From positions 2,709,853 through 2,773,852 of the forward strand of contig OZ240207.1 in NCBI GenBank assembly GCA_965197415.1: a DNA stretch of 64,000 bases. Direction: 5' to 3'. This DNA comes from Dehalococcoidia bacterium (GTDB taxonomy: Bacteria; Chloroflexota; Dehalococcoidia; Lucifugimonadales; JAGWBF01). The stretch's first letter is position 1. Every line of letters starts with the position of its first letter. The position numbers and the translations under genes were made by a program. This document shows positions 11,207 to 61,132 of this stretch, in pieces. The notes beneath the pieces were generated by a model, which was not told the origin of the DNA, ran no database searches, and saw only the letters and a list, made by a program, of their open reading frames with translations.

Positions 11207-11328
11207 GGTCTTGTCCTTCCAGTGATTTAGATTAACACTCGGCGCCGCCCCTCGCCAACTGGAACAACCAGGTTCTCGTGAAGGGAGACGTTTCGAGACG
11301 TCCAGGGCCTGATTGCCAATATAACATC

Positions 11329-11359
11329 GGGCCTGGCGCCCGTCATTGACGCCAGGCCC
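11329..11359 (-). terminator. strong intercistronic hairpin between rny and ymdB (attenuator or processing site; terminator status uncertain)
   Basis: A perfect 10-bp stem pairs gggcctggcg (11329-11338) with cgccaggccc (11350-11359) across an 11-nt loop. The downstream minus-strand sequence gatgttatatt is only moderately T-rich. Confidence 0.4.
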
Positions 11360-11387
11360 GATATGGTCTCACCGTATTCTTCCCGCA

Positions 11388-24810: not shown

Positions 24811-26256
24811 TCATCGTCCCGCAGAAGCCTGAGGCTGTAGCAGATTCAAGACAAGGGCAGACGCGTAGTCCTTACTATTCTCTCTTTTGACTTTGATATT
24901 TACCTGAACAAGCTTTTTGCACGGTGTGGTGAGGTTTTCGGCGTGAACGACACACGCAATTGCTCCCGAAACCTCATCCCCACGACCGTCAACACAAATT
25001 TCAACATCAAAAAAATGGTCGCCCGTTCCATGCCGCCACTGTTCGCATTCCAGGCTATACGACTCGACCGGCCCAGTCGGTCGAGTCGGTTTGTAGTAGA
25101 AGCCGTTAGGGTCGCGCCGATGGGTTGTAGGCGGAACAATATCAGCTGAACGAGGAGTCAGAATAGGGGAACGGGATATACCTTCGTTGAAACCTATGAG
25201 ACTCGACTTCTGTCTCCCACGTGGTCTGAGTGGAGGCCTAGGAAGGAGTAAATTACCTTCCTGGTCGTCCTCTGACTGGGGGTAAACCCTGAATCCTCCT
25301 TTCCCCGAGATGTCCACCAACGTGCCGCTTCCTGGGCGAGTTCCTTCGTTAGCAATTGCAAACCGGAGGAAGGGTCTACTTGACTGTTGCAAAGCTAGAT
25401 GCAAACCTGACAACTTCGCTTGGCAATCTCTTCTCCAATCCACTAAGTGACGATTGTATTCATCAATATCCCCGCGGGATGGAGGTACACGCTCTTCTTT
25501 TCTCCAGGGTGGTTGATTGTTGTGCTTGACATGAAGTTTTGCTGCGTCCACTTCATCGATCGGTGGGAACCCATCCCTTAACTTTCGAAGGAGTTCTCTG
25601 ACTTCATCATCGGTCAATGGGCTATAAACTCCGCACTCGACCTCGATCGATTCTATTTCCTTACCTTGTTCGTCGATACACCTGATCTGGAATAGAGGGT
25701 CAGCTTTCTTAAGCCGCTCAAGCTCGTTTTGAAGGCGCGCAACCTCTCGTTCTTTCGTGGTGCTTTCAGGTGGTAGCAGCCATTCATCTTTGACAGGAGT
25801 AAACGAGAGACTGATGCTCTTCGCCGTCATCATAAGGCCAGTATCATGGGTGAGTAGCTGTACAGACGAACTCTCTTGTTCTTCTCTATATCTGTAACAG
25901 CATCCCGCGATTTCATCATCTAGCTTGCTGTAATCAAGACGGTCCTTCAAATCTTGACTGGGCAGATTAGTCGGATCAATGTAGAGTCGTACGTGCGGCG
26001 CTGATTCTCGAACAAGATGATATCCCTCGTTACTGGAAACGATACTCTGAAAAATAGAATTAGCCTTACGTGCGCGTCGCCCTACTCGGTCGTTTCCCCT
26101 GGATTTCTGATTGTCTATCTCCCTTTGAACTGGACGACATACGATTAAATGGATTTCCTCGAAATCTCCGCAATCTGACCAATCAATTTCCTCTAACGGT
26201 CGGCATTGAATAAACAAGTTAGTATCAGGGAATAGGTAAAGGACGCGATTGGTCAT
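24811..26256 (-). CDS. PIN-like (DUF4935-type) nuclease-domain protein with a coiled-coil and a large uncharacterised C-terminal region
   Basis: The N-terminus shows LFPDTNLFIQC...VCRPVQREIDN...DDEIAGCC...LLTHDTGLMMTAK, which is the PIN acidic-residue pattern. A coiled coil (KEREVARLQNELERLKK) follows. I recognise no motif in the C-terminal 250 aa. The ATG has a GAGGTGG RBS. Confidence 0.6.
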   Translation of the reverse strand: MTNRVLYLFPDTNLFIQCRPLEEIDWSDCGDFEEIHLIVCRPVQREIDNQKSRGNDRVGRRARKANSIFQSIVSSNEGYHLVRESAPHVRLYIDPTNLPSQDLKDRLDYSKLDDEIAGCCYRYREEQESSSVQLLTHDTGLMMTAKSISLSFTPVKDEWLLPPESTTKEREVARLQNELERLKKADPLFQIRCIDEQGKEIESIEVECGVYSPLTDDEVRELLRKLRDGFPPIDEVDAAKLHVKHNNQPPWRKEERVPPSRGDIDEYNRHLVDWRRDCQAKLSGLHLALQQSSRPFLRFAIANEGTRPGSGTLVDISGKGGFRVYPQSEDDQEGNLLLPRPPLRPRGRQKSSLIGFNEGISRSPILTPRSADIVPPTTHRRDPNGFYYKPTRPTGPVESYSLECEQWRHGTGDHFFDVEICVDGRGDEVSGAIACVVHAENLTTPCKKLVQVNIKVKRENSKDYASALVLNLLQPQASAGR

Positions 26257-26468
26257 TCTTCCACCTCTTGAGCATGTTGCCGGACATCAACCTCACCCCC
26301 ACGCCAACTACGGCAGCCAAGCGTCTTGATGGACGGAGTGTGTGCGGGATTCTTCCACACGGTACCGGCGCCTATCCAACAACTTAGAGGGTCACTCGTT
26401 GACCTGGCCTACTCTCCATTCTACCAGTTACAACTTGGGACGATAGCCCATCACTAGTGGACAGTGGA

Positions 26469-27293
26469 TTATCGGTCTGAACCCGTGACGGTGGGGCGGT
26501 TGGAGGCGTTCTCCTGGTTGGCCCATATCAGGAAAATAACGGCGAGGGCGCCAACAAAGAAGAGGCCGCCGGGCACCCACATGATGATGCCGCCTATCTG
26601 CTGGTCAGACACCACCGAAGTGCCCCATATCCTTGGAGCCTCGGCGTACCATTCGTATATCCCGGCATCGCTGAAAGTAATCAGCGCTCCAAGGATGGTA
26701 GGAATCGTGGGCTGGGCTACTAGGTAGACCATCTGGACCAGGTAAGAAGGCCGGGGAAGCTCCCTCATCCGGCTCATGATGGGCCACCAGAGAAGGATGC
26801 CTCCTCCTATAAATAGGATATGCTCCAGTATGTGTATTCCTCTGTCCCTCAGAGCCCCGTCGTACAGAGCGGGTACGTGCCACAGGACAAATATGAAATT
26901 GAAGATGAGGAAGGCGGGAATCGGCCTTGTGATGAACCGCAGCGCTGGCAGTACCCTCCGACCATTGACCAGCGGGCGGATCAGCCAAGGCGGGGCGCCG
27001 GCCAGCAAGAACGGCGGCGAAACCAGGGTCAACAGCAGGTGCTGGACCATGTGTGCCGAGAAGAGGTACTTGTCTCCCAGCTCGTGGATAGGCGACAGCA
27101 GGGCCACGAAGAGGACCAGGACCCCAGTGAGAAACAGGGCCACTTCCCCCGAGCCGAGGGCTTCGGACCCTTGAAAGCGTTTCCTAAGCGGTCCCACGCC
27201 CAGAAGGTAGAGAGCCGTGAATGTCAGGAGGCCTATGACAACGCTGGGATGGGCGTGCCATTCCGTCCAGGAGAATTGGACCTCAGCGGGCAA
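26469..27293 (-). CDS. ctaG: cytochrome c oxidase assembly factor CtaG (caa3-type, membrane)
   Basis: The motifs HMVQHLLLTLVSPPFLLAG and FVLWHVPALYD are typical of Caa3_CtaG. The gene sits within the cox cluster. Confidence 0.8.
   Translation of the reverse strand: MPAEVQFSWTEWHAHPSVVIGLLTFTALYLLGVGPLRKRFQGSEALGSGEVALFLTGVLVLFVALLSPIHELGDKYLFSAHMVQHLLLTLVSPPFLLAGAPPWLIRPLVNGRRVLPALRFITRPIPAFLIFNFIFVLWHVPALYDGALRDRGIHILEHILFIGGGILLWWPIMSRMRELPRPSYLVQMVYLVAQPTIPTILGALITFSDAGIYEWYAEAPRIWGTSVVSDQQIGGIIMWVPGGLFFVGALAVIFLIWANQENASNRPTVTGSDR
26485..26534. repeat. right copy of the exact 50-nt direct repeat (functional 3' end of ctaG)
   Basis: This copy is identical to 24717-24766 and encodes ...FLIWANQENASNRPTVTG of the CtaG-like protein. 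Confidence 0.9.
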
Positions 27294-27359
27294 CGACGTC
27301 CCCTTAACAGCTTCCGGCTAATGAATCGGACTGCGGCCGCGCCGGAGACTCAGGGCAGC

Positions 27360-27803
27360 CTAGGTGCGGGTGGAGAAGGGGCCGGTCCAACGTAGGTCGC
27401 CCAGGTCAATGGAGGCGGAAGCAAGGCCATTCGGCTCTTCTCTGATGATGGAACCGTGGCCTCCTCCTGCATCCGGCGGATTGGCTTTGGACGAAAGCAC
27501 CTGGAATAAGGCCAGCAACGCTACGGTGATGACCAAAGCGAGCAGCGCACCGCCGATGAAGACGGTCGAGAAGAGGCGATGGTCGAACTTAAGGTGCATG
27601 TAGAACAGTATCACGAGGGCGAACTTGGCTATAGACAGGATGAGGAATATGGGCAGGAAGGCAGGTTCCAGCACGTCGATGTAAAACACACCGACCTCGA
27701 TGCCGGTGAGCACCGCCAGAAGAAAGGCGATCTTGATATAGGTGGCAGGTGTGGGGTGCTCCCCGTGCCCTGCCTGCTGATTCGCGTTAGGATTGTGAGC
27801 CAT
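27360..27803 (-). CDS. cytochrome c oxidase subunit IV (small prokaryotic subunit) with a C-terminal extension
   Basis: The segment YIKIAFLLAVLTGIEVGVFY...AKFALVILFYMHLKFD is typical of the CoxIV/CyoD-like family. Confidence 0.8.
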   Translation of the reverse strand: MAHNPNANQQAGHGEHPTPATYIKIAFLLAVLTGIEVGVFYIDVLEPAFLPIFLILSIAKFALVILFYMHLKFDHRLFSTVFIGGALLALVITVALLALFQVLSSKANPPDAGGGHGSIIREEPNGLASASIDLGDLRWTGPFSTRT

Positions 27804-27822
27804 GCCGGTCCCTCATGCCGTA

Positions 27823-28545
27823 CTAAGTTACCCCGACTCCGATTAGATAGACCACCGCGAAGATGACAATCCAGACGATGTCAACAAAGTGCCAGTACAG
27901 GGCTGCCAGGTCCACACTCAGCGCCTGCCTGTCGGTCAGTTCCCGCTGGGCTTTCTTCCCTCCCCACAGGGAGTATCCCAAGATCGACAGTAGCCATATC
28001 ACGCCAACCGTCACGTGGGCCCCGTGGAACCCGGTCAATGTGAAGAAGGTCGTGCCGAACAGGTTGGTCTTTGGGGTCAGTCCGTATTGCGCCTCGTATT
28101 CTGCCTCCCCGTGCATGCAGGCCTCATCCGGGTGCACAGGAATCTTGTCGGTCTGCACGGGGCACTCGACGACCTGATGGTGGTTGGCGAATTCGTAGAA
28201 CTCGAAGGTCTGGAAGGCAAGGAAAGTCGCTCCCAACAGAGCGGTCGAAAGGAGCCAAACCCGGAAGGCCCTCATGTCGCCCCGGTTGATGGAGGCGTAG
28301 GCCAGCACCATGGACATGCTGGACATCAGCAGGACGAAGGTGCTCACAGAAGTGGTGGGTATGTCGAACACGTCTATGGGGTAAGGCCCCACTATGCTCT
28401 GGCCCCTGTATATCAGATAGGTGGCTATCAGGCTGCCGAAGAACAAGCAGTCGGAGCCCAGGAAGAGCCACATGAGCATCTTCCTGTGGTTTAGCCCGGT
28501 GGTAGTGTCTTCCACCACCGCGTGGTGTCCGTGCTGTTCCTGCAA
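27823..28545 (-). CDS. ctaE: cytochrome c oxidase subunit III
   Basis: The heme-copper oxidase subunit III pattern is present (FFGSLIATY...TGFHGAHVTVG...YWHFVDIVW). Confidence 0.9.
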   Translation of the reverse strand: MQEQHGHHAVVEDTTTGLNHRKMLMWLFLGSDCLFFGSLIATYLIYRGQSIVGPYPIDVFDIPTTSVSTFVLLMSSMSMVLAYASINRGDMRAFRVWLLSTALLGATFLAFQTFEFYEFANHHQVVECPVQTDKIPVHPDEACMHGEAEYEAQYGLTPKTNLFGTTFFTLTGFHGAHVTVGVIWLLSILGYSLWGGKKAQRELTDRQALSVDLAALYWHFVDIVWIVIFAVVYLIGVGVT

Positions 28546-28574
28546 CTATGCGCTCCCCATCCGACTATTCACCT

Positions 28575-30500
28575 CTACTCGTCGGGTTCTTCCGGCTCCG
28601 ATGCCGGTTCGAAAGACCAGGCGTACACGGCCACCATGGCCATGAACATACCAATCGCGCCCAAGGCCCAGGTTGTAGCCTCTTGAAAGATGGCGCCGTA
28701 GGCCGCGACGGTCATGCCTCCGGCTACCATGAAAGGCCAGTAGGAGAGGCCCGGCATGTGAATCCCGTGGCCTCCACCGTGTGCGTCACCGTGTCCTTCG
28801 GAATGATGGTCGTGGTCGTCCGCCTCGGAGGAACCTCCCGCCACAGGCTCGGGACCTTCCCGGTGTTCTCCGGACCCGTACTTTTCTTCCCAGAAGGCGT
28901 CGCGGGAATGCACCGTGGGAATCTCTGCGAAGTTGTAGTGGGGCGGCGGCGAGGATATGGACCATTCCAGGGTCCTGGCATCCCAGGGGTCGTTGGGCGC
29001 CTTCTCGCCCTTCCTCAAGCTGCGGAACGCGTTGTGAATGAAGATTAAGGTGGAGGACGCCATCAGAAATGCGCCGACGGTGGCCAGCAGGTTCAGGTTG
29101 TCCCATCCCATGCCCTCGGCGTAGGTGTATATGCGCCGTGGCATTCCGTCCAACCCCAGATTGTGCATTGGGAAGAAGGTCACGTTCATTCCCAGGAGCA
29201 TCACCCAGAAATGGAGCTTGCCCAGACCTTCGCTAAGCATCGTGCCCGTGAACTTGGGCCACCAATAGTAGATTCCGCCGAACAGGGCCCAAATGGCGCC
29301 GCCAAAGAGCACGTAGTGGATGTGGGCCACTACGAAGTAGGTGTCCTGCTGCTGATTGTCCGATGGAGCGGAGGAGTGCATGATGCCGCTCAGTCCGCCC
29401 ACGATGAACAGAATAATGAACCCTATAGCGAATAGCATGGGCGTGGTGAACTTGATTTGGCCTCCCCACATGGTGGCAATCCAGTTGAAGATTTTCACGC
29501 CTGTGGGAATGGCGATGATCATGGTGCTAATAGCAAAGGCGGCGGAGGCGTAAGGCCCCAGCCCCACCGTGAACATGTGGTGGCTCCAGACGCCCCATCC
29601 CAGGAATCCGATGATCACGCCCGAAAGCACCACCACGGGATAGCCGAAGAGGGGCTTACGGGAGAACGTTGGGATGATTTCCGTCACTATCCCCATAGCG
29701 GGCAGGATGAGTATATAGACCTCAGGATGTCCGAACACCCAGAAAATATGCTGCCAGAGGATCGGGTCTCCGTTGGCCACGGGATCGAAGAAGTTGAACC
29801 CGAAGTTGCGGTCCATGTAGAGCTCTATCAGCCCCACGGTGATGACCGGCATGGCCAGCATGATGAGCAGAGAGGTAACCAGGGTCATCCACACGAACAC
29901 GGGCATGCGCATCAGGCTCATTCCGGGCGCCCGCATGTTTACGATGGTCACTATAAAGTTGAACGCCGCTATCATCGAGGCGGTTCCAAGCGTTCCAAGC
30001 CCCACGGTGTAGAAGTCCATGCTGTCGCCCAGGGTGTACGGCTCCTCGGTGAGGTTGGCGTAAGCGAACCATCCGGTGTCCGGCGAAATGCCGCCCGCAA
30101 GCCAGCCTGAATTCAGAACGATGCCGCCGCCAAGGAACAACCAGTAGGACAACGCGTTCATCCTTGGAAACGCTACGTCCCTGGCCCCGATCATCAGGGG
30201 TATCATGTAGTTGAAGAAGGCTGCGCCCATCGGCATGATGGCCAGGAATATCATGCTCAGCGCGTGCATTGTGAACAGCTGGCTGAAAATCTCCGGGCTG
30301 ACAAGGTCCTGCTCCGGCCCGGACAATTGGACTCGCATGATCAGGGCTTCGATACCGGCCAGCAGGAAGAATATGAAGGCCGTCACCCCGTAGAGGATTC
30401 CTATCCTCTTGTGGTCAACAGTGGTTATCCAGCCCCATACTCCCTCGTAGGAGGTGGGTCTCTTTAGAGCGCCGCTTATGGTTTCAGTCAGGGTCACCAT
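28575..30500 (-). CDS. ctaD: cytochrome c oxidase subunit I with a His-rich linker and two extra C-terminal TM helices
   Basis: Canonical subunit I motifs are present (WFFGHPEVYILILP-like: FWVFGHPEVYILILPAMG; HHMFTVG; VAHIHYV). Confidence 0.97.
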   Translation of the reverse strand: MVTLTETISGALKRPTSYEGVWGWITTVDHKRIGILYGVTAFIFFLLAGIEALIMRVQLSGPEQDLVSPEIFSQLFTMHALSMIFLAIMPMGAAFFNYMIPLMIGARDVAFPRMNALSYWLFLGGGIVLNSGWLAGGISPDTGWFAYANLTEEPYTLGDSMDFYTVGLGTLGTASMIAAFNFIVTIVNMRAPGMSLMRMPVFVWMTLVTSLLIMLAMPVITVGLIELYMDRNFGFNFFDPVANGDPILWQHIFWVFGHPEVYILILPAMGIVTEIIPTFSRKPLFGYPVVVLSGVIIGFLGWGVWSHHMFTVGLGPYASAAFAISTMIIAIPTGVKIFNWIATMWGGQIKFTTPMLFAIGFIILFIVGGLSGIMHSSAPSDNQQQDTYFVVAHIHYVLFGGAIWALFGGIYYWWPKFTGTMLSEGLGKLHFWVMLLGMNVTFFPMHNLGLDGMPRRIYTYAEGMGWDNLNLLATVGAFLMASSTLIFIHNAFRSLRKGEKAPNDPWDARTLEWSISSPPPHYNFAEIPTVHSRDAFWEEKYGSGEHREGPEPVAGGSSEADDHDHHSEGHGDAHGGGHGIHMPGLSYWPFMVAGGMTVAAYGAIFQEATTWALGAIGMFMAMVAVYAWSFEPASEPEEPDE

Positions 30501-30556
30501 AGCACACCTCTAATTGTCGCACCGGGTCGTAATCGTCATCATTTTATCGTATCGAA

Positions 30557-31768
30557 TCACCGCTGGTTAAGCAGGTACTCTGCCAGAGCCAGCACTTCGT
30601 TGGGCTGCATCTCCAGGTCTGGGTTGTTGTAGACGTCCGCCAGTTCGCCCATCCGGTTTCCAGGTTTGACTTCGTTGGGGTCGGTAAGCCAACGAATCAG
30701 GTTTTCACGGTTCAGGTTAAGCGCGCCAGCCGCCAGAATCTGTCTGGCGCCCAGGTTGGTCAGGTTCGGGCCTGGGAACTGGGCGGCTCCATTTTCGAAG
30801 CTGGTCTGACGAGCCTGACGGACTGCTGCGACTCCGGCCCCTGCAATGTCATGGCAAAGCAGACATCCCTTGTCGGCGAAAAGCGCTTTCCCTTTGTCGG
30901 CCAGGTCCGAGGACTGTTCGGGCCCGTCGGCAAGAGCGTGATATTGTTCCACCCAGGCATCGAACCCCTCCTGGGTGTCCACTATGACCCTGAACTTCAT
31001 GTGCGCATGGGCCACACCGCAAAATTCGGCGCATTGGCCATACAACGTCTGGGGGAAAGGCTCGTCGAAGGTCGACGAATCGGCTTGAAGCCAAAGGCCG
31101 TTATCGTTGTTGGGGACGATATCTATCTTCCCGCCCAGCTTGGGGATCCAGAAGCTGTGGATGACGTCGCCCGAAATGAGGTTGAACTGGACTTTCCGGT
31201 CAACCGGTATATGCAACTGGTTGGCGGTGACTACGCCCTGCTCGGGGTACTCGAACTCGAACCACCACTGGTGGCCGATAACGTTGACCTCCAGGGCGTT
31301 TTCTTCCGGCTTTGGGTCTGCGGAGATGTCGAAGAGGACTATCACAGTTGGCACGGCGATTATCGCCAGCACGATGACCGGGAAGATGGTCCAAGTGATT
31401 TCCAATGGGGTGTTGCCGTGGGTCTGTTTCGGCATCTCTGTCTGTCCAGGCCTGCTCCGGTAGCGGAACATGGCATAAAGAAGGGCGCCGACCACTACCA
31501 CGAAGACGGCCACGGCAGCCCAGAAGATGAGGTAGAAGAGGTCAGCCTGCTGTTGGGCGACAGGACCCTTGGGGTCGAAAGTGGACTGGGCGTTGTCAGG
31601 GGTGCAGGCTATAAGGGCTAGAGTCCCAAGGACCAGAACCAGCCCGAATGCCGTTTTGGGCCGGGACCCCAGTCCTTTTCTGAGCAGTCCCAAGGAGCGC
31701 TGGAGGCTATGCTTGAACGTTTCCATGTAACGACGCTGGAGCACTATATCAAAAGGCGCTTCCGACAT
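30557..31768 (-). CDS. ctaC: cytochrome c oxidase subunit II fused to a cytochrome c domain (caa3-type)
   Basis: The CuA site (GQCAEFCGVAHAHM) and a C-terminal heme c motif (CLLCHD) are present. The exact start is uncertain. Confidence 0.92.
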   Translation of the reverse strand: MSEAPFDIVLQRRYMETFKHSLQRSLGLLRKGLGSRPKTAFGLVLVLGTLALIACTPDNAQSTFDPKGPVAQQQADLFYLIFWAAVAVFVVVVGALLYAMFRYRSRPGQTEMPKQTHGNTPLEITWTIFPVIVLAIIAVPTVIVLFDISADPKPEENALEVNVIGHQWWFEFEYPEQGVVTANQLHIPVDRKVQFNLISGDVIHSFWIPKLGGKIDIVPNNDNGLWLQADSSTFDEPFPQTLYGQCAEFCGVAHAHMKFRVIVDTQEGFDAWVEQYHALADGPEQSSDLADKGKALFADKGCLLCHDIAGAGVAAVRQARQTSFENGAAQFPGPNLTNLGARQILAAGALNLNRENLIRWLTDPNEVKPGNRMGELADVYNNPDLEMQPNEVLALAEYLLNQR

Positions 31769-31820
31769 TCAAGAGGCATTGCACCGCCGACCCGACCGCA
31801 AAATGGGCTAGTGAAATTTC

Positions 31821-32765
31821 TCACACATTCACCATGCTGTCAACCGTTACAAATACGAAAACCAGGGCGAGGTAGAGGAGGGAATAGAGATATAGCCGCT
31901 TGGAACCCGGCGCCCGTCCGTCAGCCTCAGGTTTCGTGAGGGCCATCTTTGCAGCCAGCAATAGGAACACCGCGCCAGATACTGCCGCGCCGCTCAGGTA
32001 TACCCATCCAAGGGCGTCCGTGGCGAAGTAGAACCCCAGGCTGAGGGCCACGGTAGCCAGGGTGTACAACAGGATTCCCCTCTGAGTTGCTGGCGTTCCC
32101 TTGACCACTGGCAGCATGGGGATTCCAGCTTTTCCGTAATCCTCTTTCATCAGAAGGGCCAGCGCCCAGAAGTGGGGGGGCGTCCATAGAAAGATGATGC
32201 CGAACAGGAAAGCCGCTGGGGCATCGAGTCCGCCGGTCACCGCCGCCCAACCGGCCAGGGGCGGCACGGCTCCGGCGGCCCCGCCGATGACGATGTTCTG
32301 GGGAGTGGTGCGCTTCAGCCACCAGGTGTAGACGAACACGTAGAACAGAGCTCCGGCAAGGGTCAGCGTGGCGCTTAGAAGGTTGACCCCCACGGCCAGA
32401 AGGATGAAGGCGAATACGTTAAGAGCCACCCCGAAAACCAGGGCGGAGGTTGGGCTGATCCGGTGGCCGGGGATGGGCCTCTGCCGGGTGCGGTTCATGA
32501 TGTAGTCGATGTCCCGGTCCATGTACTGGTTAATGGCTCCGGCGCCTCCTGCAGCCGCCGCCCCAGCCACTACCAGAAAAAGGGCTACGTCCAAAGGCGG
32601 CGGGCCCCCCGCAGCCAGGAACATGGCCGACACCGCCGTTACGAGAAGCAGTAGAACAATGGGCGGTTTTGTCAGGGCGACGTAGTCCGACACGGTAGCC
32701 CAAATCGCTGTCCAAATAGTGGACTGTCCCGCGACGGGGCGCAGTATGAAGCTGGCCTTAAGCAT
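31821..32765 (-). CDS. ctaB: protoheme IX farnesyltransferase (heme O synthase)
   Basis: The gene shows the UbiA-family pattern (NQYMDRDIDYIMNRTRQRP) and is multi-TM. I chose the ATG at 32765, which overlaps the ctaA stop by 8 nt, although the ORF extends to 32801. Confidence 0.92.
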   Translation of the reverse strand: MLKASFILRPVAGQSTIWTAIWATVSDYVALTKPPIVLLLLVTAVSAMFLAAGGPPPLDVALFLVVAGAAAAGGAGAINQYMDRDIDYIMNRTRQRPIPGHRISPTSALVFGVALNVFAFILLAVGVNLLSATLTLAGALFYVFVYTWWLKRTTPQNIVIGGAAGAVPPLAGWAAVTGGLDAPAAFLFGIIFLWTPPHFWALALLMKEDYGKAGIPMLPVVKGTPATQRGILLYTLATVALSLGFYFATDALGWVYLSGAAVSGAVFLLLAAKMALTKPEADGRAPGSKRLYLYSLLYLALVFVFVTVDSMVNV

Positions 32766-33762
32766 CGGCAGTCCTCTGGGCCTCATCTCGCAGTCCCGCA
32801 ATGGCGCCGTAGGCCATCGCCACCATGCCCAACCACATGAGAGTAGCGATGGCTAAATGGGTCAGCCGCAAACTTAACGGGAAGCCTTCCCATACAATCC
32901 CTGCTCCCAGGACTATCTGCACGAAGAAAGCCCCTGCGGTGAACGCAGCGCCATAGCCCAGCGCCGGGTTTTCGGACCGCCGGTTCCATGCCGCCGCAAC
33001 CACTCCGACTATTGCCAGACCGGCTATAAGGGCGACAAAACGATGTCCCATGTGTATGGAAGGCAAGAGGCCATGGGGAAGCCCGTTGCAGAGAGGCCAT
33101 GACTCCCCGCAAGCCGTCGCCGCTCCGGAAACAGTAACGTAGGAACCGCTGAGGATCAGGCCGTAGTTCAGCAGCGCCGTTGCCAAAACCGCCAGTACGA
33201 ACTTGCCGCCTACTATGCCTCGGGACGCCCCGCCGGGCTGCGTCCCCCCCAGGGCTACGAGCGCCACTATGAGATAGCACGCTATCAAAGCCTCTGCGGT
33301 CGCCAGGTGGGCCAGCACAAGTTCGCCAGGCAGTTCCCGCAGCACGGTGAATCCGCCCAGCACTCCTTGCCCTACCAGCAGCACGACCCCCAAAGCGGCG
33401 GGAACGGACATCCACCGGACATGCCTCCACTTCACCCATACTATGACGGAAGTGGCCACCGCCAGGACTCCGACGACACTGGCCAGCAGCCGGTGGGAAT
33501 ATTCTATGAGGGTGGCTTTATCCGCTGGGGGTATGAGTTGCCCGTGGCACAAGGGCCAGTCGGGACACCCAAGGCCCGAGTCGGTGAGCCTCACGACTCC
33601 GCCCAAGACCACCAATCCAAATGTTGTGGCGACGGTGGTGACTGCGAGCGTCTTGAAGGGACGGCCCGGCAGTCCTTCGGCCGTATCTTGGCCGTCTGTG
33701 GTCGTGCGAAAGGGCAAGGCGCTGGCCGCATGGGCTACGCGGGGTCTGTGCAACGAAAACAA
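32758..33762 (-). CDS. ctaA: heme A synthase (COX15/CtaA)
   Basis: The CPDWPLCHG motif, the second Cys pair (CGESWPLCNG) and His-containing TM helices support the call. Confidence 0.9.
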   Translation of the reverse strand: MFSLHRPRVAHAASALPFRTTTDGQDTAEGLPGRPFKTLAVTTVATTFGLVVLGGVVRLTDSGLGCPDWPLCHGQLIPPADKATLIEYSHRLLASVVGVLAVATSVIVWVKWRHVRWMSVPAALGVVLLVGQGVLGGFTVLRELPGELVLAHLATAEALIACYLIVALVALGGTQPGGASRGIVGGKFVLAVLATALLNYGLILSGSYVTVSGAATACGESWPLCNGLPHGLLPSIHMGHRFVALIAGLAIVGVVAAAWNRRSENPALGYGAAFTAGAFFVQIVLGAGIVWEGFPLSLRLTHLAIATLMWLGMVAMAYGAIAGLRDEAQRTADA

Positions 33763-34048
33763 TGGTACGGCGGCCCTGAAGAGAACCCCAGCGGCCCCAG
33801 TTTTAAGCTGTTTCAGGTCAGTGATTGGAGGCCTACTTGAGCGGCGTTTAATAGTCTGCCCGGAAAGATGCGCCCATTATAGCACGGCCCTTCCACCCAT
33901 AAAACAAGAGCCTCCGGCGTCTGTCCCTCCACCCACATGGGTTCAGTTGGCCCTGAGTCTGTCGAAAGCCCAACTCCCTGTAGTAACATCCCACCAACCG
34001 TTCTGGTTGGCCTGAGGCGTTCGAAGGGCCGGGCATAAGGAGGAGGTC

Positions 34049-36428: not shown

Positions 36429-36586
36429 GTACAATGGGAGGGCGCCCGCGCCTGACCTTGCCAGGCCTATAGCCCCGTGCTACCATTCCGACCTGACGGG
36501 TGTTCCATCATTTCCCATTCCTTGACATCCGACGGCACAGAACCCTAACGTCAAACCGCTGGCATCGACCGATATAGTCAACACGG

Positions 36587-36808
36587 AGGACTGGTGACAG
36601 CCCCAAGCGTTCCCATCGTCTATTCCATTGAGGGTTGAAGCGTCAGCGATAAGCTGCGCGAGTCGTGGGCTCGCCAGGGAATCGTGTACGAGGAGCGTCG
36701 TGTGGACTTGGAACAGAAGTGGCTGGACGAGCTGCTTGAGTTCTCCGACGTCTCCCCCACCATCGTCTATCCTGATGGACGCATCGAAATCGGGTTCGAA
36801 GGTGAGGC
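36587..36808 (+). CDS. glutaredoxin/NrdH-like protein with an in-frame TGA at the active-site position (candidate selenoprotein, U-S-V-S motif)
   Basis: GGAGG (36578-36582) precedes the GTG at 36587. The translation is VTAPSVPIVYSIEG-[TGA 36629]-SVSDKLREWLARQGIVYEERRVDLEQKWLDELLEFSDVSPTIVYPDGRIEIGFEGEAG*. It aligns without gaps to the NrdH/Grx fold, with the TGA on the first Cys of CxxC. It is absent from the ORF track because of the TGA. Confidence 0.5.
36647..36670 (+). promoter_or_regulatory. SECIS-like hairpin 15 nt downstream of the in-frame TGA
   Basis: The structure is ctg[c]gcgag-tcgtggg-ctcgccag: 8 bp with one bulged C and a G-rich 7-nt loop. The distance from the TGA to the loop is 24 nt. 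Confidence 0.4.
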
Positions 36809-36899
36809 GGGTTGAGCCCTTGCGTAGGGCGGCGTGACCGCCCGGCGCTTGATGGGACACACTTCCGGCTGCCTGCCGGTTGTATAGGAGGGTAGTTCA

Positions 36900-37493
36900 A
36901 TGACAGACCGCACTAGCGTCGTGACCACCGAGAGGTTTGACAGCGGCTACAACTATGAGGAGTACGTGGACCAGGCGGTCAAAGTAAACAAAGACTGGTT
37001 CACGCAGCTTTACGACGACTTCCAAATAGACCCGGACGACGCCAGTTTCTTCAAAGAAGTCTCGGCCAGACCCGACGGCCCGGCCAAGATGATGGTCATA
37101 GGCGAGGACTGGTGCCCCGACGTATACAGGGGCATGCCCACCGTAGCCCGCATCGCCGAGGCCGGCGGCATGGACATGCGCATCTTCCCAAGAGACTCCC
37201 ACAAGGACATCATGGCCGAGTTCCTCAAGGACGGCCTCTATGAGTCCATCCCCGCGGTGGTCTTCTACACCAGCGGCCACGACTACATCTGCCACTGGAT
37301 TGAACGCCCAGAACTGGCCGACAAGGAGATGGCAGAGACAAACCGCCAGATCAAGGAAGAGATGCCCGACGCCACGGAAGTTCAGCAGCGAGCGGCGGCA
37401 AGGCCTCGGAACCAGGAGAGGTTCCCAGTGTGGCAGAGAGAGTCGGTCAAGGAGATCAGAGAACTGCTGGCCGAAAAGCTGGGTCTGATTTGA
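36900..37493 (+). CDS. thioredoxin-fold protein (Thioredoxin_9-like) with a single-Cys WCPDV site
   Basis: The segment MMVIGEDWCPDVYRGMP and the cis-Pro region (SIPAVVFY) are present. AGGAGGG RBS. Confidence 0.7.
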   Translation: MTDRTSVVTTERFDSGYNYEEYVDQAVKVNKDWFTQLYDDFQIDPDDASFFKEVSARPDGPAKMMVIGEDWCPDVYRGMPTVARIAEAGGMDMRIFPRDSHKDIMAEFLKDGLYESIPAVVFYTSGHDYICHWIERPELADKEMAETNRQIKEEMPDATEVQQRAAARPRNQERFPVWQRESVKEIRELLAEKLGLI

Positions 37494-38906: not shown

Positions 38907-40109
38907 TCACCCGACGGCTTTGCTCTGGAATAGAGTTTCCGTCTCCTCATCCGAGTAGCCAAGCTCCCCTAGAATGTCCCGCGTGTGCTCTCCCAGGAGG
39001 GGATGATACTGGCGTTCGGGCGTTGCGGGAGTCCCGAAGAATTTGACAGGCGCTCCAAAGCTCTTCACCGTGCCGGCCGCCGGGTGCTGCACCTCGGCTA
39101 TCAGGTCGTTCTCCCACACGTCCACGTCGTCGAACATGTCGGCGTAGTCCCTCACCGGCACGACCCATTGGCCGTTCTCTCTCAGTATCTCGACCCATTC
39201 ATCCTGGTCTCTCGTTATGAATATGTCTTCAAGGAGCGAGGTCAGTTCTTCACGGTTCTCTCTCCTGCGATGCTGGTTATCGAACCTTGGATCGGTGAGC
39301 AGGTCCGGACGTTCTACAGCCGCGCAGAAGCCCGTCCAGTCCCTGTCCCGGTAGTTGGAGATGGCGATTTCCTTGCCGTCTCTGCACGTCCACAGGCCGT
39401 AGGGCGGCGGAAGGTACGACCTCATGCCCCGCTTCACGGGGAGGTCGTAGGTGCCCAGGTAGTGGCCGATAGTGGCAGGTTGAAGGGCCAGTGAACCGGC
39501 CAGCAATGAAGTGCTCAACTCCTGTCCCTCTCCCGTGCGGTCCCGGTTGTAGAGGGCGCTGACCACTCCGAACGCCATGAGCATCCCGGCCGCCGAGTCT
39601 CCCAGCATCGTGCCGATGGGCGTGTTGGCCCGGTCGGGATACCCGCTGAGGCTGAGAATTCCGCTCATGGCCTGCACCTGCATGTCCTGGCCGGGCAGGT
39701 CTTTATAGGGGCCCTTGTCGCCGAATCCGGTGATGGCCCCGTATATCAGCATCGGGTTGACCTTCTTCAGGTCGCTGTAGTCCAGGGCCAGGCTGGCCAT
39801 GGTATTGCGGCGCAAGTTGTGGAGGAACACGTCGGAAGCCTCCACCAGCTTGTACATCACGCCCTTTCCCTCTTCCTTGGCCAGGTCTAGGCACATGCTC
39901 CGCTTGCTCCGGTTCCTGGACAGGAACGTATACGACACGTTCCCCACCTTGGAGAAAGGAGCTCCTTCCCTCGACCGGTCTCCCTTGCCTATGGCCTCCA
40001 CCTTAACCACGTCGGCGCCCAGGTCACCCAGCAACTGGGTGCAAAGGGGTGTGGAAAGCATGTGGGCGACCTCTATGACCTTCACGCCATGAAGGGGACC
40101 GCAAGACAT
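38907..40109 (-). CDS. family III CoA-transferase (CaiB/BaiF)
   Basis: The N-terminus GVKVIEVAHMLSTPLCTQLLGDLGADVVKVE and the 400-aa length fit the family. Confidence 0.9.
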   Translation of the reverse strand: MSCGPLHGVKVIEVAHMLSTPLCTQLLGDLGADVVKVEAIGKGDRSREGAPFSKVGNVSYTFLSRNRSKRSMCLDLAKEEGKGVMYKLVEASDVFLHNLRRNTMASLALDYSDLKKVNPMLIYGAITGFGDKGPYKDLPGQDMQVQAMSGILSLSGYPDRANTPIGTMLGDSAAGMLMAFGVVSALYNRDRTGEGQELSTSLLAGSLALQPATIGHYLGTYDLPVKRGMRSYLPPPYGLWTCRDGKEIAISNYRDRDWTGFCAAVERPDLLTDPRFDNQHRRRENREELTSLLEDIFITRDQDEWVEILRENGQWVVPVRDYADMFDDVDVWENDLIAEVQHPAAGTVKSFGAPVKFFGTPATPERQYHPLLGEHTRDILGELGYSDEETETLFQSKAVG

Positions 40110-60256: not shown

Positions 60257-61132
60257 TCAAATGGCTAGGTCCAATGGAAGGTCACTGATGTCCCTTAACC
60301 GTCTCCCTGCAACCAAGGTTTCGAACATATCGGATTGTGACTCGTCTTCCAGCGAGCCGACAGCCTCTCGTAGTTCGTACATTGCCATGTGATACACACA
60401 ATCCAAGTCTCCTGAACCTAAAGCAAGGGAGGCCAGCCTGGTTGGCATTGGTTCGCCAGTCACAACAACGATATGAGGAGTGTTGCCTTTCCTATTCCTA
60501 ATCAGATTCAGGGCTTCTGTGCGTGTGTTCTGCGCTCGGTCGCTGCGGATAGTCCATTTACATGAAATGCTCGCGTGCAGCATCGTTGTGGTTTCCGAGT
60601 TGCGTGCCCGTAGCGGTGATAAGCTGCCTGCTTCTTCGTTGTCAGCAATATATCGTTCGTTTGCATTGATGGCGACATCGGATACAGGTTCTCTCCCAAT
60701 CACGATGTCAGGAACGATCAGATAGTCTAAAGCGAATGCCGCGCGAAACTCACGGTTCTCTCGGTGTTCTTCAAGCATTTCTCGAACTGTAGCCAGATGT
60801 TCATATTGCTGGAACGCCATGATCCCGGTTTTGGCCTGTGCGGTACTGTACCGCCATTCTCCCGGACGAAGATGTGAGAGACGGGAGAATGCCTTTTCGA
60901 CGAACGCCATGGTGAGTTCTGTGAATGCAACTCCTGCCGACTGGCTTTTGGCTGGTGTGTTTGTCGCATTCAGGGCATTAGCCAGCATCGCCGAAGCTAT
61001 GATGCCGCTTACTTTACTTCCCTTGTCGGCATTGGACGCATAGGCGCCGTCCCAACCCCATACTCTGTTTTGAAGCGCCTGATGGTACCCCAGCCGAAGT
61101 TGCATCAGTAATGAGTCCGACGAGGAGCTCAT
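60257..61132 (-). CDS. type II restriction endonuclease, NgoMIV/Cfr10I/Bse634I family
   Basis: The catalytic pattern is PD(141-142)-x49-K192-x13-E206, with S-C-K-W-T-I-R-S-D-R after the catalytic Lys (the R-x-D-R CC:GG-recognition motif of this family). The gene is 291 aa and starts 3 nt downstream of the methyltransferase gene. Confidence 0.75.
   Translation of the reverse strand: MSSSSDSLLMQLRLGYHQALQNRVWGWDGAYASNADKGSKVSGIIASAMLANALNATNTPAKSQSAGVAFTELTMAFVEKAFSRLSHLRPGEWRYSTAQAKTGIMAFQQYEHLATVREMLEEHRENREFRAAFALDYLIVPDIVIGREPVSDVAINANERYIADNEEAGSLSPLRARNSETTTMLHASISCKWTIRSDRAQNTRTEALNLIRNRKGNTPHIVVVTGEPMPTRLASLALGSGDLDCVYHMAMYELREAVGSLEDESQSDMFETLVAGRRLRDISDLPLDLAI

What the first reader, a model, noticed from the sequence alone, without database searches (positions are those of the whole stretch)
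36587..36808. Hidden glutaredoxin/NrdH-like gene with TGA at the catalytic Cys position: a candidate selenoprotein (UxxS)
A 73-codon frame starts at GTG 36587, with GGAGG at 36578-36582, and reads VTAPSVPIVYSIEG-TGA-SVSDKLREWLARQGIVYEERRVDLEQKWLDELLEFSDVSPTIVYPDGRIEIGFEGEAG*.

It aligns without gaps to E. coli NrdH as I recall it. ITIYTRNDCVQCHATKRALENRGFDFEMINVD aligns with PIVYSIEGUSVSDKLREWLARQGIVYEERRVD. The TGA (36629-36631) falls exactly on the first Cys of CxxC. The cis-Pro region (SPTIV) and the terminal GF motif are conserved.

An 8-bp hairpin with one bulge and a G-rich loop lies 15 nt downstream (36647-36670). The distance from the TGA to the loop is 24 nt, which is within the range reported for bacterial SECIS elements.

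Other genes in the window use TGA as a stop (for example vapB), so general recoding of TGA is unlikely.

The six-frame track misses this gene and shows only antisense or out-of-frame ORFs here.
Basis: partly seen in the sequence, partly recalled or inferred. Interest (0 to 1): 0.75.

Follow-up and report, generated by a model that had tools for sequence, protein, structure and literature searches.

The report
Unannotated glutaredoxin-like gene with two selenocysteines

Summary
The gene starts at GTG 36594, after GGAGG at 36585-36589, and has an in-frame TGA at 36636-36638.

The gene does not end at the next TGA (36813-36815). That codon is a second selenocysteine (Sec). It is followed by Ala-Leu-Ala and the true stop, TAG 36825-36827. 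The product is 77 aa with Sec at positions 15 and 74.

Evidence comes from 82 orthologues, all from Dehalococcoidia, SAR202 or other Chloroflexota:
- Both columns alternate between TGA and TGC/TGT.
- Each TGA is followed by a GC-rich hairpin with compensatory base changes. The hairpin is missing from the Cys-coding orthologues.
- In the window's clade the three tail codons show 198 synonymous and 0 nonsynonymous pairwise differences.
- Ordinary TGA stops in the window lack such hairpins (0 of 14).

The nearest known families are the NCBIfam 'Uxx-star' glutaredoxin-like selenoproteins. Every member of this clade scores below their curated cutoffs, and the tail here is U-x-x-x-stop, not U-x-x-stop.

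A single-cysteine (monothiol) Thioredoxin_9 gene lies immediately downstream in 58 of 60 Sec-containing loci, against 3 of 21 all-Cys loci.

The Sec-decoding machinery could not be checked in this genome. Two related genomes rank among the ten most selenoprotein-rich bacteria in BSepDB.

The parts
36585..36589 (+). Ribosome-binding site GGAGG, 4 nt upstream of the start codon
   Evidence: Read directly from the sequence. In the diverged relative L001, alignable sequence begins at this point, while the intergenic DNA upstream cannot be aligned.
36594..36827 (+). Full coding sequence: 77 codons plus the TAG stop. Product: VTAPSVPIVYSIEG-U-SVSDKLRESWARQGIVYEERRVDLEQKWLDELLEFSDVSPTIVYPDGRIEIGFEGEAG-U-ALA
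   Evidence: Translation. Orthologues from 81 other loci align without frame disruptions. Best family match is NF041212 Uxx-star, E = 1.3e-9. The family profile matches solved glutaredoxins.
36636..36638 (+). First Sec codon (UGA, residue 15), at the first position of the active-site motif U-S-V-S
   Evidence: This column is TGA in 36 of 82 orthologues and TGC/TGT in 46. When it is TGA the fourth motif residue is Ser in 34 of 36. When it is Cys the fourth residue is Cys in 46 of 46.
36654..36677 (+). SECIS-like hairpin 1, inside the coding sequence: CUG-C-GCGAGUC-GUG-GGCUCGC-CAG. The loop is at 36665-36667, 29 nt after the U of UGA
   Evidence: Predicted fold -28.3 kcal/mol, z = -2.5. 92.6% of cells pair across 34 TGA-type sequences, against 28-62% when partner columns are slid. 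Four pairs show compensatory changes. Only 50.2% pair in 45 Cys-type sequences.
36813..36815 (+).
   Evidence: This column is TGA in 61 of 82 orthologues and TGC/TGT in 21. It is always preceded by Gly and followed by exactly three residues and a stop. It aligns to the Sec position of the Uxx-star profiles.
36816..36827 (+). C-terminal tail Ala-Leu-Ala and the true stop codon TAG (36825-36827)
   Evidence: In the 15-member UALA clade the tail codons show 198 synonymous and 0 nonsynonymous pairwise differences. The three codons after the stop show 4 and 226.
36822..36848 (+). SECIS-like hairpin 2, spanning the stop codon and the 3' untranslated spacer. Upper stem GGGCGG/CCGCCC at 36827-36843, loop CGUGA at 36833-36837. 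The upper stem starts 11 nt after the UGA
   Evidence: Fold. A hairpin was detected in 56 of 61 TGA-type loci and 1 of 21 Cys-type loci, with 48 distinct stem/loop combinations. 80.9% of cells pair, all 7 pairs show compensatory changes, and the covariation score is 0.458 against 0.169 for shuffles. It has no T-run and was not called as a terminator.
36900..37493 (+). Conserved partner gene: a Thioredoxin_9-family protein (197 aa) with the single-cysteine motif W-C-P-D-V and a second conserved Cys in YICHWIERP. Probably co-transcribed
   Evidence: Pfam PF14595, E = 1.3e-25. It lies immediately downstream in 35 of 35 double-Sec, 23 of 25 single-Sec and 3 of 21 all-Cys loci. The motif is conserved. 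No terminator was called between the two genes.

Best explanation
Window 36594-36827 (+) encodes a 77-residue glutaredoxin/NrdH-fold redox protein with two selenocysteines.

**Decoding (inferred from the anatomy and from the established bacterial SelB/SECIS mechanism)**
- UGA 36636 is read as Sec-15 with the help of a hairpin inside the coding sequence (36654-36677).
- UGA 36813 is read as Sec-74 with the help of a second hairpin (36822-36848) that spans the stop codon and the untranslated spacer.
- Translation then adds Ala-Leu-Ala and ends at UAG 36825.

**Protein chemistry (inferred, not shown)**
- Sec-15 sits at the N-terminus of helix 1, in the classical CxxC position, here as U-x-x-S.
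- Sec-74 sits in a short flexible tail directly after the GFEG loop, which in this fold lies next to the active site.
- Sec at position 15 occurs only together with Sec at position 74. It almost always coincides with replacement of the second motif Cys by Ser.
- The likeliest chemistry is therefore a Sec-15/Sec-74 diselenide redox couple that replaces the CxxC disulfide of the Cys-type relatives.
- The tail would act as a mobile redox arm, as in thioredoxin reductase.

**Partner (inferred from synteny)** The single-cysteine Thioredoxin_9 protein encoded immediately downstream is the probable dedicated partner, either substrate or relay.
For: **Sec/Cys pairing at both columns.** 82 orthologues from species-level Chloroflexota genomes: TGA/TGA in 36, Cys/TGA in 25, Cys/Cys in 21, and TGA/Cys in none.

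**Purifying selection on both sides of both UGAs.**
- Conservation starts at the ribosome-binding site and start codon.
- PIVY(T/S) is conserved upstream of UGA1.
- Tail codons: 198 synonymous against 0 nonsynonymous differences.

**Hairpin 1.** 92.6% paired with compensatory changes in TGA-type loci, against 50.2% in Cys-type loci that encode a similar peptide.

**Hairpin 2.** All 7 pairs show compensatory changes and there are 48 distinct stems. It is found in only 1 of 21 Cys-type loci.

**Window controls.** 0 of 14 ordinary TGA stops have such a hairpin. The background is 5%. TGA is a normal stop here.

**Family.** The best hits are the Uxx-star glutaredoxin-like selenoprotein models, and the tail Sec aligns to their Sec position. 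A review lists UXX-star family 1 as a distant Grx-like protein with two Sec.

**Lineage.** Two genomes that carry double-Sec orthologues (L027, L028) are in BSepDB's top ten, with 46 and 49 selenoprotein genes. BSepDB requires Sec-pathway genes for inclusion.

**Partner.** Thioredoxin_9 synteny in 58 of 60 Sec-form loci against 3 of 21 all-Cys loci.
Against: - No selA, selB, selD or tRNA-Sec was found in the 64-kb window. The rest of this genome could not be searched, so Sec decoding in this organism is inferred from relatives.
- The TGA/hairpin co-occurrence at site 2 traces to about one evolutionary transition, and at site 1 to about four. The Fisher P values are therefore inflated. The case rests on stem covariation and the synonymous-substitution pattern.
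- The window's own hairpin 2 is not significantly more stable than shuffled sequence (z = -1.2).
- Neither hairpin matches any Rfam model.
- The structure model has low confidence (mean pLDDT 66, tail below 50). Proximity of the two Sec residues is therefore not shown.
- The diselenide and the link to the partner are inferences from sequence co-variation and synteny only.
- There are no expression or protein data.
Confidence: 0.85

Rival explanations
1. One reading: a 73-residue protein with one Sec (U-x-x-S) that ends at TGA 36813. The GC hairpin after it would be a terminator or a stabilising element.
For: TGA is a legitimate stop in this genome. The window's hairpin 2 alone is not statistically unusual (z = -1.2). 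Gene callers end the gene there.
Against: - 21 orthologues have Cys at that column, followed by three residues and a stop.
- Tail codons show 198 synonymous and 0 nonsynonymous differences, against 4 and 226 just after the true stop.
- The hairpin keeps a fixed distance from the TGA, shows covariation at all 7 pairs, and is found in only 1 of 21 Cys-type loci.
- There is no T-run and no terminator call.
Confidence: 0.03
2. The gene is a decaying pseudogene, or only the short downstream ORF (43 aa from GTG 36684, or 57 aa in a relative) is the real gene. The TGAs would then be plain stops.
For: This is how public pipelines call it. No Sec machinery was seen in the window.
Against: - The TGA is kept at exactly the same two columns in 36 and 61 species-level genomes, with no other frame disruptions.
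- The upstream strand and active-site region are conserved, and conservation begins at the ribosome-binding site.
- A 43-aa product would lack strand 1 and helix 1 of the fold.
Confidence: 0.02
3. The UGAs are read through, but not as selenocysteine. For example, Cys or Trp could be inserted by near-cognate decoding, or the lineage could have lost selenium use while keeping the gene.
For: Sec machinery was not verified in this genome. Cys is functionally interchangeable at both positions in relatives.
Against: - Hairpins at SECIS-like spacing are conserved after both UGAs and are not conserved after the Cys codons.
- Relatives with the same double-UGA gene are among the most selenoprotein-rich bacteria known and possess the pathway by BSepDB's criteria.
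- TGA ends about a quarter of the window's ORFs, so there is no general reassignment.
Confidence: 0.05
4. It is an orthologue of NrdH-redoxin, the electron donor of class Ib ribonucleotide reductase, that happens to use Sec.
For: Similar length and fold. The family profile hits E. coli NrdH (1h75) at E = 1.4e-5, and the model overlaps NrdH structures at TM about 0.62.
Against: - The NrdH models TIGR02194 and PRK10329 give no hit to the window protein, and only 16-29 bits (cutoff 85.75) to relatives.
- Glutaredoxin and mycoredoxin structures match better.
- The neighbours are a TreT-like glycosyltransferase and Thioredoxin_9, not nrdEF.
- The Sec tail is foreign to NrdH.
Confidence: 0.02

Closest known systems
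Uxx-star family glutaredoxin-like (seleno)proteins: NCBIfam NF041212, with families 1-3 (NF041114, NF041211, NF047338) and the HUGP/GUXX-star fusion (NF045501). Family 1 is the 'distant Grx-like protein 1' of Zhang & Gladyshev 2008; the others are from Haft & Tolstoy 2025, as listed in review PMC13188914
   Same: - A glutaredoxin-like protein of about 70 aa.
- Sec or Cys in a very short C-terminal tail after a Gly, so the insertion signal for that Sec must lie across or after the stop codon.
- Family 1 also has a second Sec in the N-terminal motif (UxxT, two Sec).
- These are the best-scoring models for the window protein and for all its relatives, and the tail Sec aligns to the models' Sec position.
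   Different: - Every tested member of this clade scores below the curated cutoffs. The window scores 38.2 and relatives 28-59.5 bits against 66 for NF041212, and 22-38 bits against 72-100 for families 1-3.
- The tail is U-x-x-x-stop in 82 of 82 sequences, not U-x-x-stop.
- The motif is UxxS or CxxC, not UxxT.
- The clade is restricted to Chloroflexota in my sample and is tightly linked to a Thioredoxin_9 gene.
- I could not read Haft & Tolstoy 2025, so their neighbourhood descriptions were not compared.
Selenoprotein glutaredoxin of Clostridium oremlandii (Grx1; Cys form solved as cGrx1, PDB 7c10)
   Same: - A small glutaredoxin fold with a redox motif at the start of helix 1.
- It is the best solved-structure match to the family profile (E = 1.3e-9) and the second-best structural match.
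- Review PMC13188914 lists bacterial Sec-glutaredoxins with a U/CxxC/S motif.
   Different: - It has one Sec only and no C-terminal Sec tail.
- It has a dithiol-type motif and a different lineage.
- That 7c10 is the Cys form of the natural selenoprotein is my recollection, not a tool result.
C-terminal Gly-Cys-Sec-Gly tail of mammalian thioredoxin reductase
   Same: Analogy only: a redox-active Sec in a flexible tail a few residues from the stop, which shuttles electrons to or from a buried redox centre. Its insertion signal lies after the stop codon (established knowledge).
   Different: It is an unrelated flavoprotein fold with a eukaryotic 3'-UTR SECIS and different decoding factors. There is no homology.
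NrdH-redoxin and mycoredoxin (small glutaredoxin-fold proteins)
   Same: Same size and topology, with the conserved cis-Pro (VP) and the GF loop.
   Different: They contain no Sec and no redox-active tail, and they sit in different operon contexts. Curated NrdH and mycoredoxin models are far below their cutoffs.

Membership tests
Bacterial selenoprotein gene (generic in-silico criteria) | An in-frame UGA that aligns with Cys in homologues (a Sec/Cys pair) | tested here: met
   Site 1: 36 TGA against 46 TGC/TGT. Site 2: 61 TGA against 21 TGC/TGT, among 82 orthologues.
Bacterial selenoprotein gene (generic in-silico criteria) | Sequence conservation, in frame, on both sides of the UGA | tested here: met
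   Conservation starts at the ribosome-binding site and start codon. PIVY(T/S) lies upstream of UGA1. The tail after UGA2 shows 198 synonymous and 0 nonsynonymous differences.
Bacterial selenoprotein gene (generic in-silico criteria) | A stem-loop shortly downstream of the UGA (bacterial SECIS), usually with G in the apical loop | tested here: met
   Hairpin 1: the loop GUG starts 29 nt after the U of UGA, and 92.6% of cells pair with compensatory changes. Hairpin 2: the loop starts 20 nt after the U, and all 7 pairs covary. Neither hairpin is conserved in the Cys-type loci. There is no Rfam model to test against.
Bacterial selenoprotein gene (generic in-silico criteria) | selA, selB, selD and tRNA-Sec present in the same genome | not testable with these tools
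   None in the 64-kb window. Related genomes L027 and L028 are listed by BSepDB with 46 and 49 selenoprotein genes.
Bacterial selenoprotein gene (generic in-silico criteria) | Selenium shown in the protein (labelling or mass spectrometry) | not testable with these tools
   No experimental data are available.
Uxx-star glutaredoxin-like (seleno)protein, NF041212 and families 1-3 | Score at or above the curated cutoff of the family model | tested here: not met
   Window with tail: 38.2 bits against a cutoff of 66. Relatives with tails: 31.6-59.5 bits. Families 1-3: 22-38 bits against cutoffs of 72-100. These are still the best-scoring models.
Uxx-star glutaredoxin-like (seleno)protein, NF041212 and families 1-3 | C-terminal Sec/Cys followed by exactly two residues and the stop (U-x-x-stop) | tested here: not met
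   The tail is [U/C]-x-[I/L]-[G/A]-stop, three residues after Sec, in 82 of 82 sequences. The related P0032 clade has U-E-I-S-stop. The tail Sec maps to profile position 68 of 70, 69 of 71 and 234 of 236. That the name means U-x-x-stop is my reading of it together with these profile lengths.
Uxx-star glutaredoxin-like (seleno)protein, NF041212 and families 1-3 | A glutaredoxin-like fold of about 70 residues with an N-terminal [U/C]xx[C/S/T] motif | tested here: met
   Alignment A1, PDB profile hits, model topology, and motifs USVS, UPAS and CPAC.
NrdH-redoxin | Match to the NrdH models (TIGR02194, PRK10329) and an nrdEF gene context | tested here: not met
   No NrdH hit for the window protein at E <= 1. 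Relatives score 16-29 bits against 85.75. The neighbours are TreT-like and Thioredoxin_9 genes.
Glutaredoxin domain (Pfam PF00462) | Score at or above the Pfam gathering threshold | tested here: inconclusive
   The window protein scores 19.1 bits against 22.9, but Cys-form relatives carry precomputed PF00462 hits. It belongs to the superfamily and is a divergent member.

The most novel reading that the evidence does not exclude
This is a distinct, so far unnamed 'G-U-x-x-x-stop' family of glutaredoxin-fold proteins confined to Dehalococcoidia/SAR202. Its N-terminal Sec and tail Sec form a diselenide redox couple that replaced the CxxC disulfide. It works as a two-gene selenium redox relay with a dedicated single-cysteine Thioredoxin_9 partner. 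In about half of the members, the codon UGA means Sec and then, 12 nt later, stop.
Probability: 0.35. Interest if true: 0.6.

Novelty: new variant of a known kind. Interest (0 to 1): 0.45.

Why it matters
- **Annotation.** The gene is mis-annotated in every public source I sampled. It appears as a 43- or 57-aa fragment, as a 70-aa truncated 'glutaredoxin', or as a hypothetical protein. That includes genomes of SAR202 and other Dehalococcoidia, a group with many marine members. A corrected gene model and a family model would recover at least 61 selenoprotein genes among the 80 species-level genomes returned (99 candidates passed the filter).
- **Decoding.** The family is a compact natural example of two Sec insertions in a 77-residue protein, one driven by a hairpin that straddles the stop codon. 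In many relatives the same codon means Sec and then stop 12 nt later, which is a natural test of the spacing rule for bacterial Sec insertion.
- **Chemistry.** The three-state series (CxxC with Cys tail, CxxC with Sec tail, UxxS with Sec tail) and the Sec-linked Thioredoxin_9 partner give a testable hypothesis for diselenide-based redox chemistry.
- **Limits.** It is not a new principle. Glutaredoxin-like proteins with two Sec and a C-terminal Sec tail have been described.

Tried and rejected
- **Searches with the corrected protein.** The representatives search and the structure predictor refuse sequences that are not exact window translations, so the U-to-C protein could not be submitted. I used the 58-aa segment between the two TGAs for the search, and a Cys-form homologue for the model.
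- **Annotating the rest of the window.** Exact-protein look-ups for two other window genes found nothing.
- **Screen for other genes bridged by a TGA.** A screen based on G+C at third codon positions was too unspecific in this 59% G+C sequence. A stricter scan of read-through and upstream extensions gave no convincing second selenoprotein. One ORF ending TGA-SQT-TAG (60257-61132, minus strand) has no hairpin and is chance.
- **Sec machinery in the window.** Motif searches for SelA, SelB and SelD found nothing. The motifs were from memory, so this is a weak negative.
- **Hairpin 2 alignment.** MAFFT plus RNAalifold on all hairpin-2 sequences predicted no structure, because loop length and register differ between clades. 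An ungapped subset gave the covariation result.
- **Rfam.** No match, even at E <= 10.
- **Literature.** Haft & Tolstoy 2025 is not in the library, and no BSepDB supplements are held.
- **Structure.** The model was too uncertain (pLDDT 66) to judge the distance between the two Sec positions, and no coordinates are returned.
- **Explanations rejected.** Pseudogene, downstream start, single-Sec model, general TGA reassignment, terminator hairpin and NrdH orthology; see the rival explanations.
Full report
**1. Checking the observation**

Translating 36587-36808 or 36593-36815 gives a frame full of stops. The correct frame is 36594-36815.

- GGAGG lies at 36585-36589 and GTG at 36594.
- The peptide reads VTAPSVPIVYSIEG-TGA-SVSDKLRESWARQGIVYEERRVDLEQKWLDELLEFSDVSPTIVYPDGRIEIGFEGEAG-TGA.
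- The in-frame TGA is at 36636-36638.
- The hairpin is at 36654-36677: CUG, a bulged C, GCGAGUC, a GUG loop, GGCUCGC, CAG. Its predicted energy is -28.3 kcal/mol, z = -2.5 against shuffles.
- The mechanical ORF list shows only a 43-aa ORF (36684-36815) in this frame, plus antisense ORFs.
- TGA ends 16 of 61 greedily chosen ORFs in the window, against 35 for TAG and 10 for TAA. TGA is therefore an ordinary stop here.

**2. First family clue**

With Sec replaced by Cys, Pfam's Glutaredoxin model matches only weakly (19.1 bits, threshold 22.9). The best NCBIfam matches are the 'Uxx-star family glutaredoxin-like (seleno)protein' models (NF041212, E = 2.6e-9).

[quoted passage not shown] It also lists further UXX-star families from Haft & Tolstoy 2025 (PMC13188914).

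That made me re-read the 'stop'. After TGA 36813 the frame continues GCC CTT GCG TAG, followed at once by a GC-rich hairpin.

**3. Public databases truncate the gene**

A word-indexed search of 5.8 billion proteins found only a 57-aa and a 43-aa fragment. The contigs that carry them show the same local order, TreT-like glycosyltransferase, then the fragment, then Thioredoxin_9, with a caa3 oxidase operon upstream.

In a DNA alignment, the most diverged of these contigs (L001) cannot be aligned upstream of GGAGG. From the ribosome-binding site onwards it is conserved:
- Both TGAs are kept.
- The changes in the 14 upstream codons are conservative or synonymous.
- The two changes in the Ala-Leu-Ala tail are both synonymous.

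**4. Distant relatives show Cys at both columns**

An exhaustive HMMER search with the 58 residues between the two TGAs returned 40 relatives.
- Many have PIVYT..GC(P/D)AC at the N-terminus.
- After the GFEGxxG motif, many have a Cys tail: GCFI-stop, GCYIG-stop or GCYIA-stop.
- Others are called as ending exactly at that Gly (alignment A1).

**5. Eighty genomic loci**

A scan of one genome per GTDB species returned 80 loci, all from Dehalococcoidia, SAR202 or other Chloroflexota MAGs. The closest, OZ244780.1, is 95.1% identical to the window over 6.2 kb.

I translated each locus with TGA shown as U and tallied 82 sequences:

| Site 1 | Fourth motif residue | Site 2 | Count |
|---|---|---|---|
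| TGA | Ser | TGA | 34 |
| TGA | Cys | TGA | 2 |
| Cys | Cys | TGA | 25 |
| Cys | Cys | Cys | 21 |
| TGA | any | Cys | 0 |

The tail is always [U/C]-x-[I/L]-[G/A] followed by a stop: UEIG 39, UALA 15, CYIG 11, CHIG 10, UDIG 4, others 3. No locus has a frame disruption elsewhere.

In the 15-member UALA clade that contains the window, pairwise codon differences are as follows:

| Region | Synonymous | Nonsynonymous |
|---|---|---|
| Three tail codons | 198 | 0 |
| Three codons after the true stop | 4 | 226 |
| Between the two UGAs | 2094 | 1338 |

The tail is therefore translated. The true gene is 36594-36827, 77 residues, with Sec at positions 15 and 74.

**6. The hairpins**

*Site 1.* On an ungapped alignment of 34 distinct TGA-type sequences, the window's hairpin structure is kept in 92.6% of cells. 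Sliding the partner columns gives 28-62%. Four pairs show double (compensatory) changes, in 36 cells, and no shuffle of 500 reaches the covariation score. Stems seen include GCGAGUC/GGCUCGC, GCGACGC/GCGUCGC and GCCAGUC/GACUGGC. The GUG loop is formed by the last base of one codon plus the UG of the conserved Trp codon. At the same columns, 45 Cys-type sequences that encode a similar peptide pair in only 50.2% of cells.

*Site 2.* On 50 ungapped sequences a 7-bp stem with a 3-nt loop pairs in 80.9% of cells, against 29-56% when slid. That figure includes sequences whose loop length puts them out of register. All seven pairs show compensatory changes, in 51 cells, and the covariation score is 0.458 against 0.169 for shuffles (0 of 500).

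*Simple detector* (a perfect stem of at least 6 bp with at least 4 G-C pairs):

| Site | TGA-type loci with hairpin | Cys-type loci with hairpin |
|---|---|---|
| Site 1 | 25 of 36 | 1 of 46 |
| Site 2 | 56 of 61 | 1 of 21 |

Site 2 shows 48 distinct stem/loop combinations. Its loops mostly begin with G, and the loop starts 20-22 nt after the U of UGA in 49 of 57 detected hairpins.

*Caveat.* On a neighbour-joining tree the Sec/Cys state changes at least four times at site 1 and only about once at site 2. The Fisher P values overstate independence. The weight lies on the covariation and on the substitution pattern.

*Window controls.* 0 of 14 ordinary TGA stops and 5% of all TGA triplets have such a hairpin. 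Both TGAs of this gene do.

*Not a terminator.* Hairpin 2 has no T-run and is not called as a terminator. None is called between this gene and the next.

*Spacing.* In the window the upper stem of hairpin 2 starts 11 nt after the UGA. As I recall the literature (not tested here), that is the spacing of the minimal E. coli fdhF element, and 16-37 nt from UGA to the apical loop is the range used by bSECISearch.

**7. Fold**
- A profile of the family matches solved glutaredoxins (7c10 at E = 1.3e-9), mycoredoxin, and NrdH (1h75 at 1.4e-5).
- An AlphaFold model of a Cys-form homologue has low confidence (mean pLDDT 66, tail below 50). Its topology is beta1-alpha1-beta2-alpha2-beta3-beta4 plus a tail.
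- Its best structural matches are Mrx1, cGrx1 and NrdH, at TM 0.6-0.68.
- The Pro of the VP/SP motif (the cis-Pro of this fold) is invariant, and the loop Gly and tail Gly are conserved.

**8. Partner gene**

The next gene (36900-37493) is a Thioredoxin_9-family protein (PF14595, E = 1.3e-25).
- It lies immediately downstream, on the same strand and within 400 nt, in 35 of 35 double-Sec loci, 23 of 25 single-Sec loci and 3 of 21 all-Cys loci. Of the two single-Sec exceptions, one is cut off by a contig end.
- Other neighbours are not conserved. The TreT-like gene is present in 4 of 81 loci.
- The partner keeps a single-cysteine motif, GEDWC(P/G)DV, and a second Cys in YICHWIERP.
- It has no solved homologue detectable by sequence.

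**9. Does the lineage decode Sec?**

The window holds no tRNA gene, no Rfam hit, and no SelA, SelB or SelD signature. That is unsurprising for 64 kb of a genome of about 3 Mb. I could not search the rest of the genome.

The BSepDB paper analyses only species with at least two Sec-pathway genes. In its top-ten table it lists 'Dehalococcoidia bacterium UBA1141' with 49 selenoprotein genes and 'Dehalococcoidia bacterium 10f4566d-...' with 46 (PMC13326102). These are the genomes of my loci L028 and L027, and both carry the double-TGA form of this gene.

**10. Mechanism**

*Shown:*
- two conserved UGA codons on Cys columns;
- two covarying hairpins;
- a translated tail;
- a glutaredoxin-like fold;
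- a conserved partner gene.

*Inferred from the established bacterial SelB/SECIS mechanism:* SelB carrying Sec-tRNA binds hairpin 1 to decode UGA-15, then hairpin 2 to decode UGA-74. The ribosome then reads three more codons and terminates at UAG inside the base of hairpin 2.

*Inferred from co-variation:* Sec at position 15 never occurs without Sec at position 74. It coincides with replacement of the resolving Cys by Ser in 34 of 36 cases, while Cys at position 15 always keeps CxxC. The tail Sec is therefore the likely resolving partner, forming a diselenide. The three states look like stepwise replacement of sulfur chemistry by selenium chemistry.

*Inferred from synteny:* the single-cysteine Thioredoxin_9 protein is the partner or target. 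The reductant and the physiological substrate are unknown. The review notes that Sec in UXX-star proteins might instead bind metals or unknown substrates, and I cannot exclude that.

**11. Comparison with known families**

The protein works like, and is most similar to, the Uxx-star glutaredoxin-like selenoproteins, but it fails two membership tests.
- *Curated cutoffs.* The window scores 38.2 bits and relatives with tails score 31.6-59.5 bits, against 66 for NF041212. Scores against families 1-3 are 22-38 bits against cutoffs of 72-100.
- *Tail length.* The tail here is U-x-x-x-stop in 82 of 82 sequences. The models end two positions after the aligned Sec: position 68 of 70, 69 of 71 and 234 of 236.
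- The neighbouring P0032 clade also has a four-residue tail, U-E-I-S-stop, followed by a hairpin.
- Public sources call Cys-form or truncated members 'glutaredoxin', 'glutaredoxin domain-containing protein' or 'hypothetical protein', never a selenoprotein.
- It is not an NrdH orthologue.

**12. Verdict**

It is a new variant, a sister clade, of a known kind rather than something categorically new. I could not read Haft & Tolstoy 2025 or query BSepDB, so prior cataloguing of this clade cannot be excluded.

Interest is moderate. A selenoprotein specialist would find the double-Sec glutaredoxin unsurprising. The useful parts would be the three-state series, the hairpin that straddles the stop codon, the Sec-then-stop use of UGA 12 nt apart in relatives, and the Sec-linked Thioredoxin_9 partner.

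Noticed in passing
L012, L013, L015, L017, L019, L021 and others (42 of 82 family members); not the window itself, which uses TAG: In about half of the orthologues the stop codon after the four-residue tail is itself TGA. UGA would then mean Sec and, 12 nt later, stop, with the hairpin beginning right at or after the second UGA. Read-through products beyond the second UGA are not conserved in length or sequence.
   Followed up: partly
window 1-64000 (greedy set of 61 ORFs): Stop-codon usage is dominated by TAG (35), with TGA 16 and TAA 10. That is unusual for a genome with 59% G+C. It might relate to heavy use of UGA for Sec in this lineage, but the ORF set is crude and I made no comparison with other genomes.
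   Followed up: no
window 36900-37493 (+), and immediately downstream of the gene in 61 related loci (for example L001, L011, L022, L053): The Thioredoxin_9 partner has a single-cysteine motif, W-C-(P/G)-D-V, instead of CxxC, plus a second invariant Cys in YICHWIERP. It has no solved homologue by sequence and no NCBIfam name. Its linkage to the Sec forms but not the Cys forms of the glutaredoxin-like gene is unexplained.
   Followed up: partly
L088-L092 (P0032 clade), around locus positions 2001-2260: A sister clade of 70-aa 'glutaredoxins' also continues G-TGA-GAG-ATC-AGC-TAA followed by a GC hairpin. The next called gene is a fusion of a CysRS-like domain and a glycosyltransferase, reminiscent of enzymes that make low-molecular-weight thiols. 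Its called start overlaps the tail and may be mis-set.
   Followed up: partly
window 24811-26256 (-): This 481-aa ORF has a third-codon-position G+C of 0.46, against 0.7-0.8 for its neighbours. It may have been acquired horizontally.
   Followed up: no
window about 26400-33800 (-), by correspondence with L002 and L003: A complete caa3-type cytochrome c oxidase cluster (CtaG, COX4, COX3, COX1, COX2, heme O and heme A synthases) lies just upstream. This Dehalococcoidia organism is therefore probably aerobic, unlike the organohalide-respiring members of the class.
   Followed up: no
L003 positions 10815-12016, compared with window 38907-40109 (-): The CoA-transferase family III gene is intact in the window (400 aa). 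In the 1.93-Mb relative contig it is split into products of 96 and 318 aa, and a nearby HhH-GPD gene is shorter there as well. These are either assembly frameshifts or real gene decay.
   Followed up: no
window 60257-61132 (-): This ORF ends TGA, then Ser-Gln-Thr, then TAG, which superficially resembles the U-x-x-x-stop pattern. No hairpin follows it (z = +0.84), so I judged it to be chance.
   Followed up: yes
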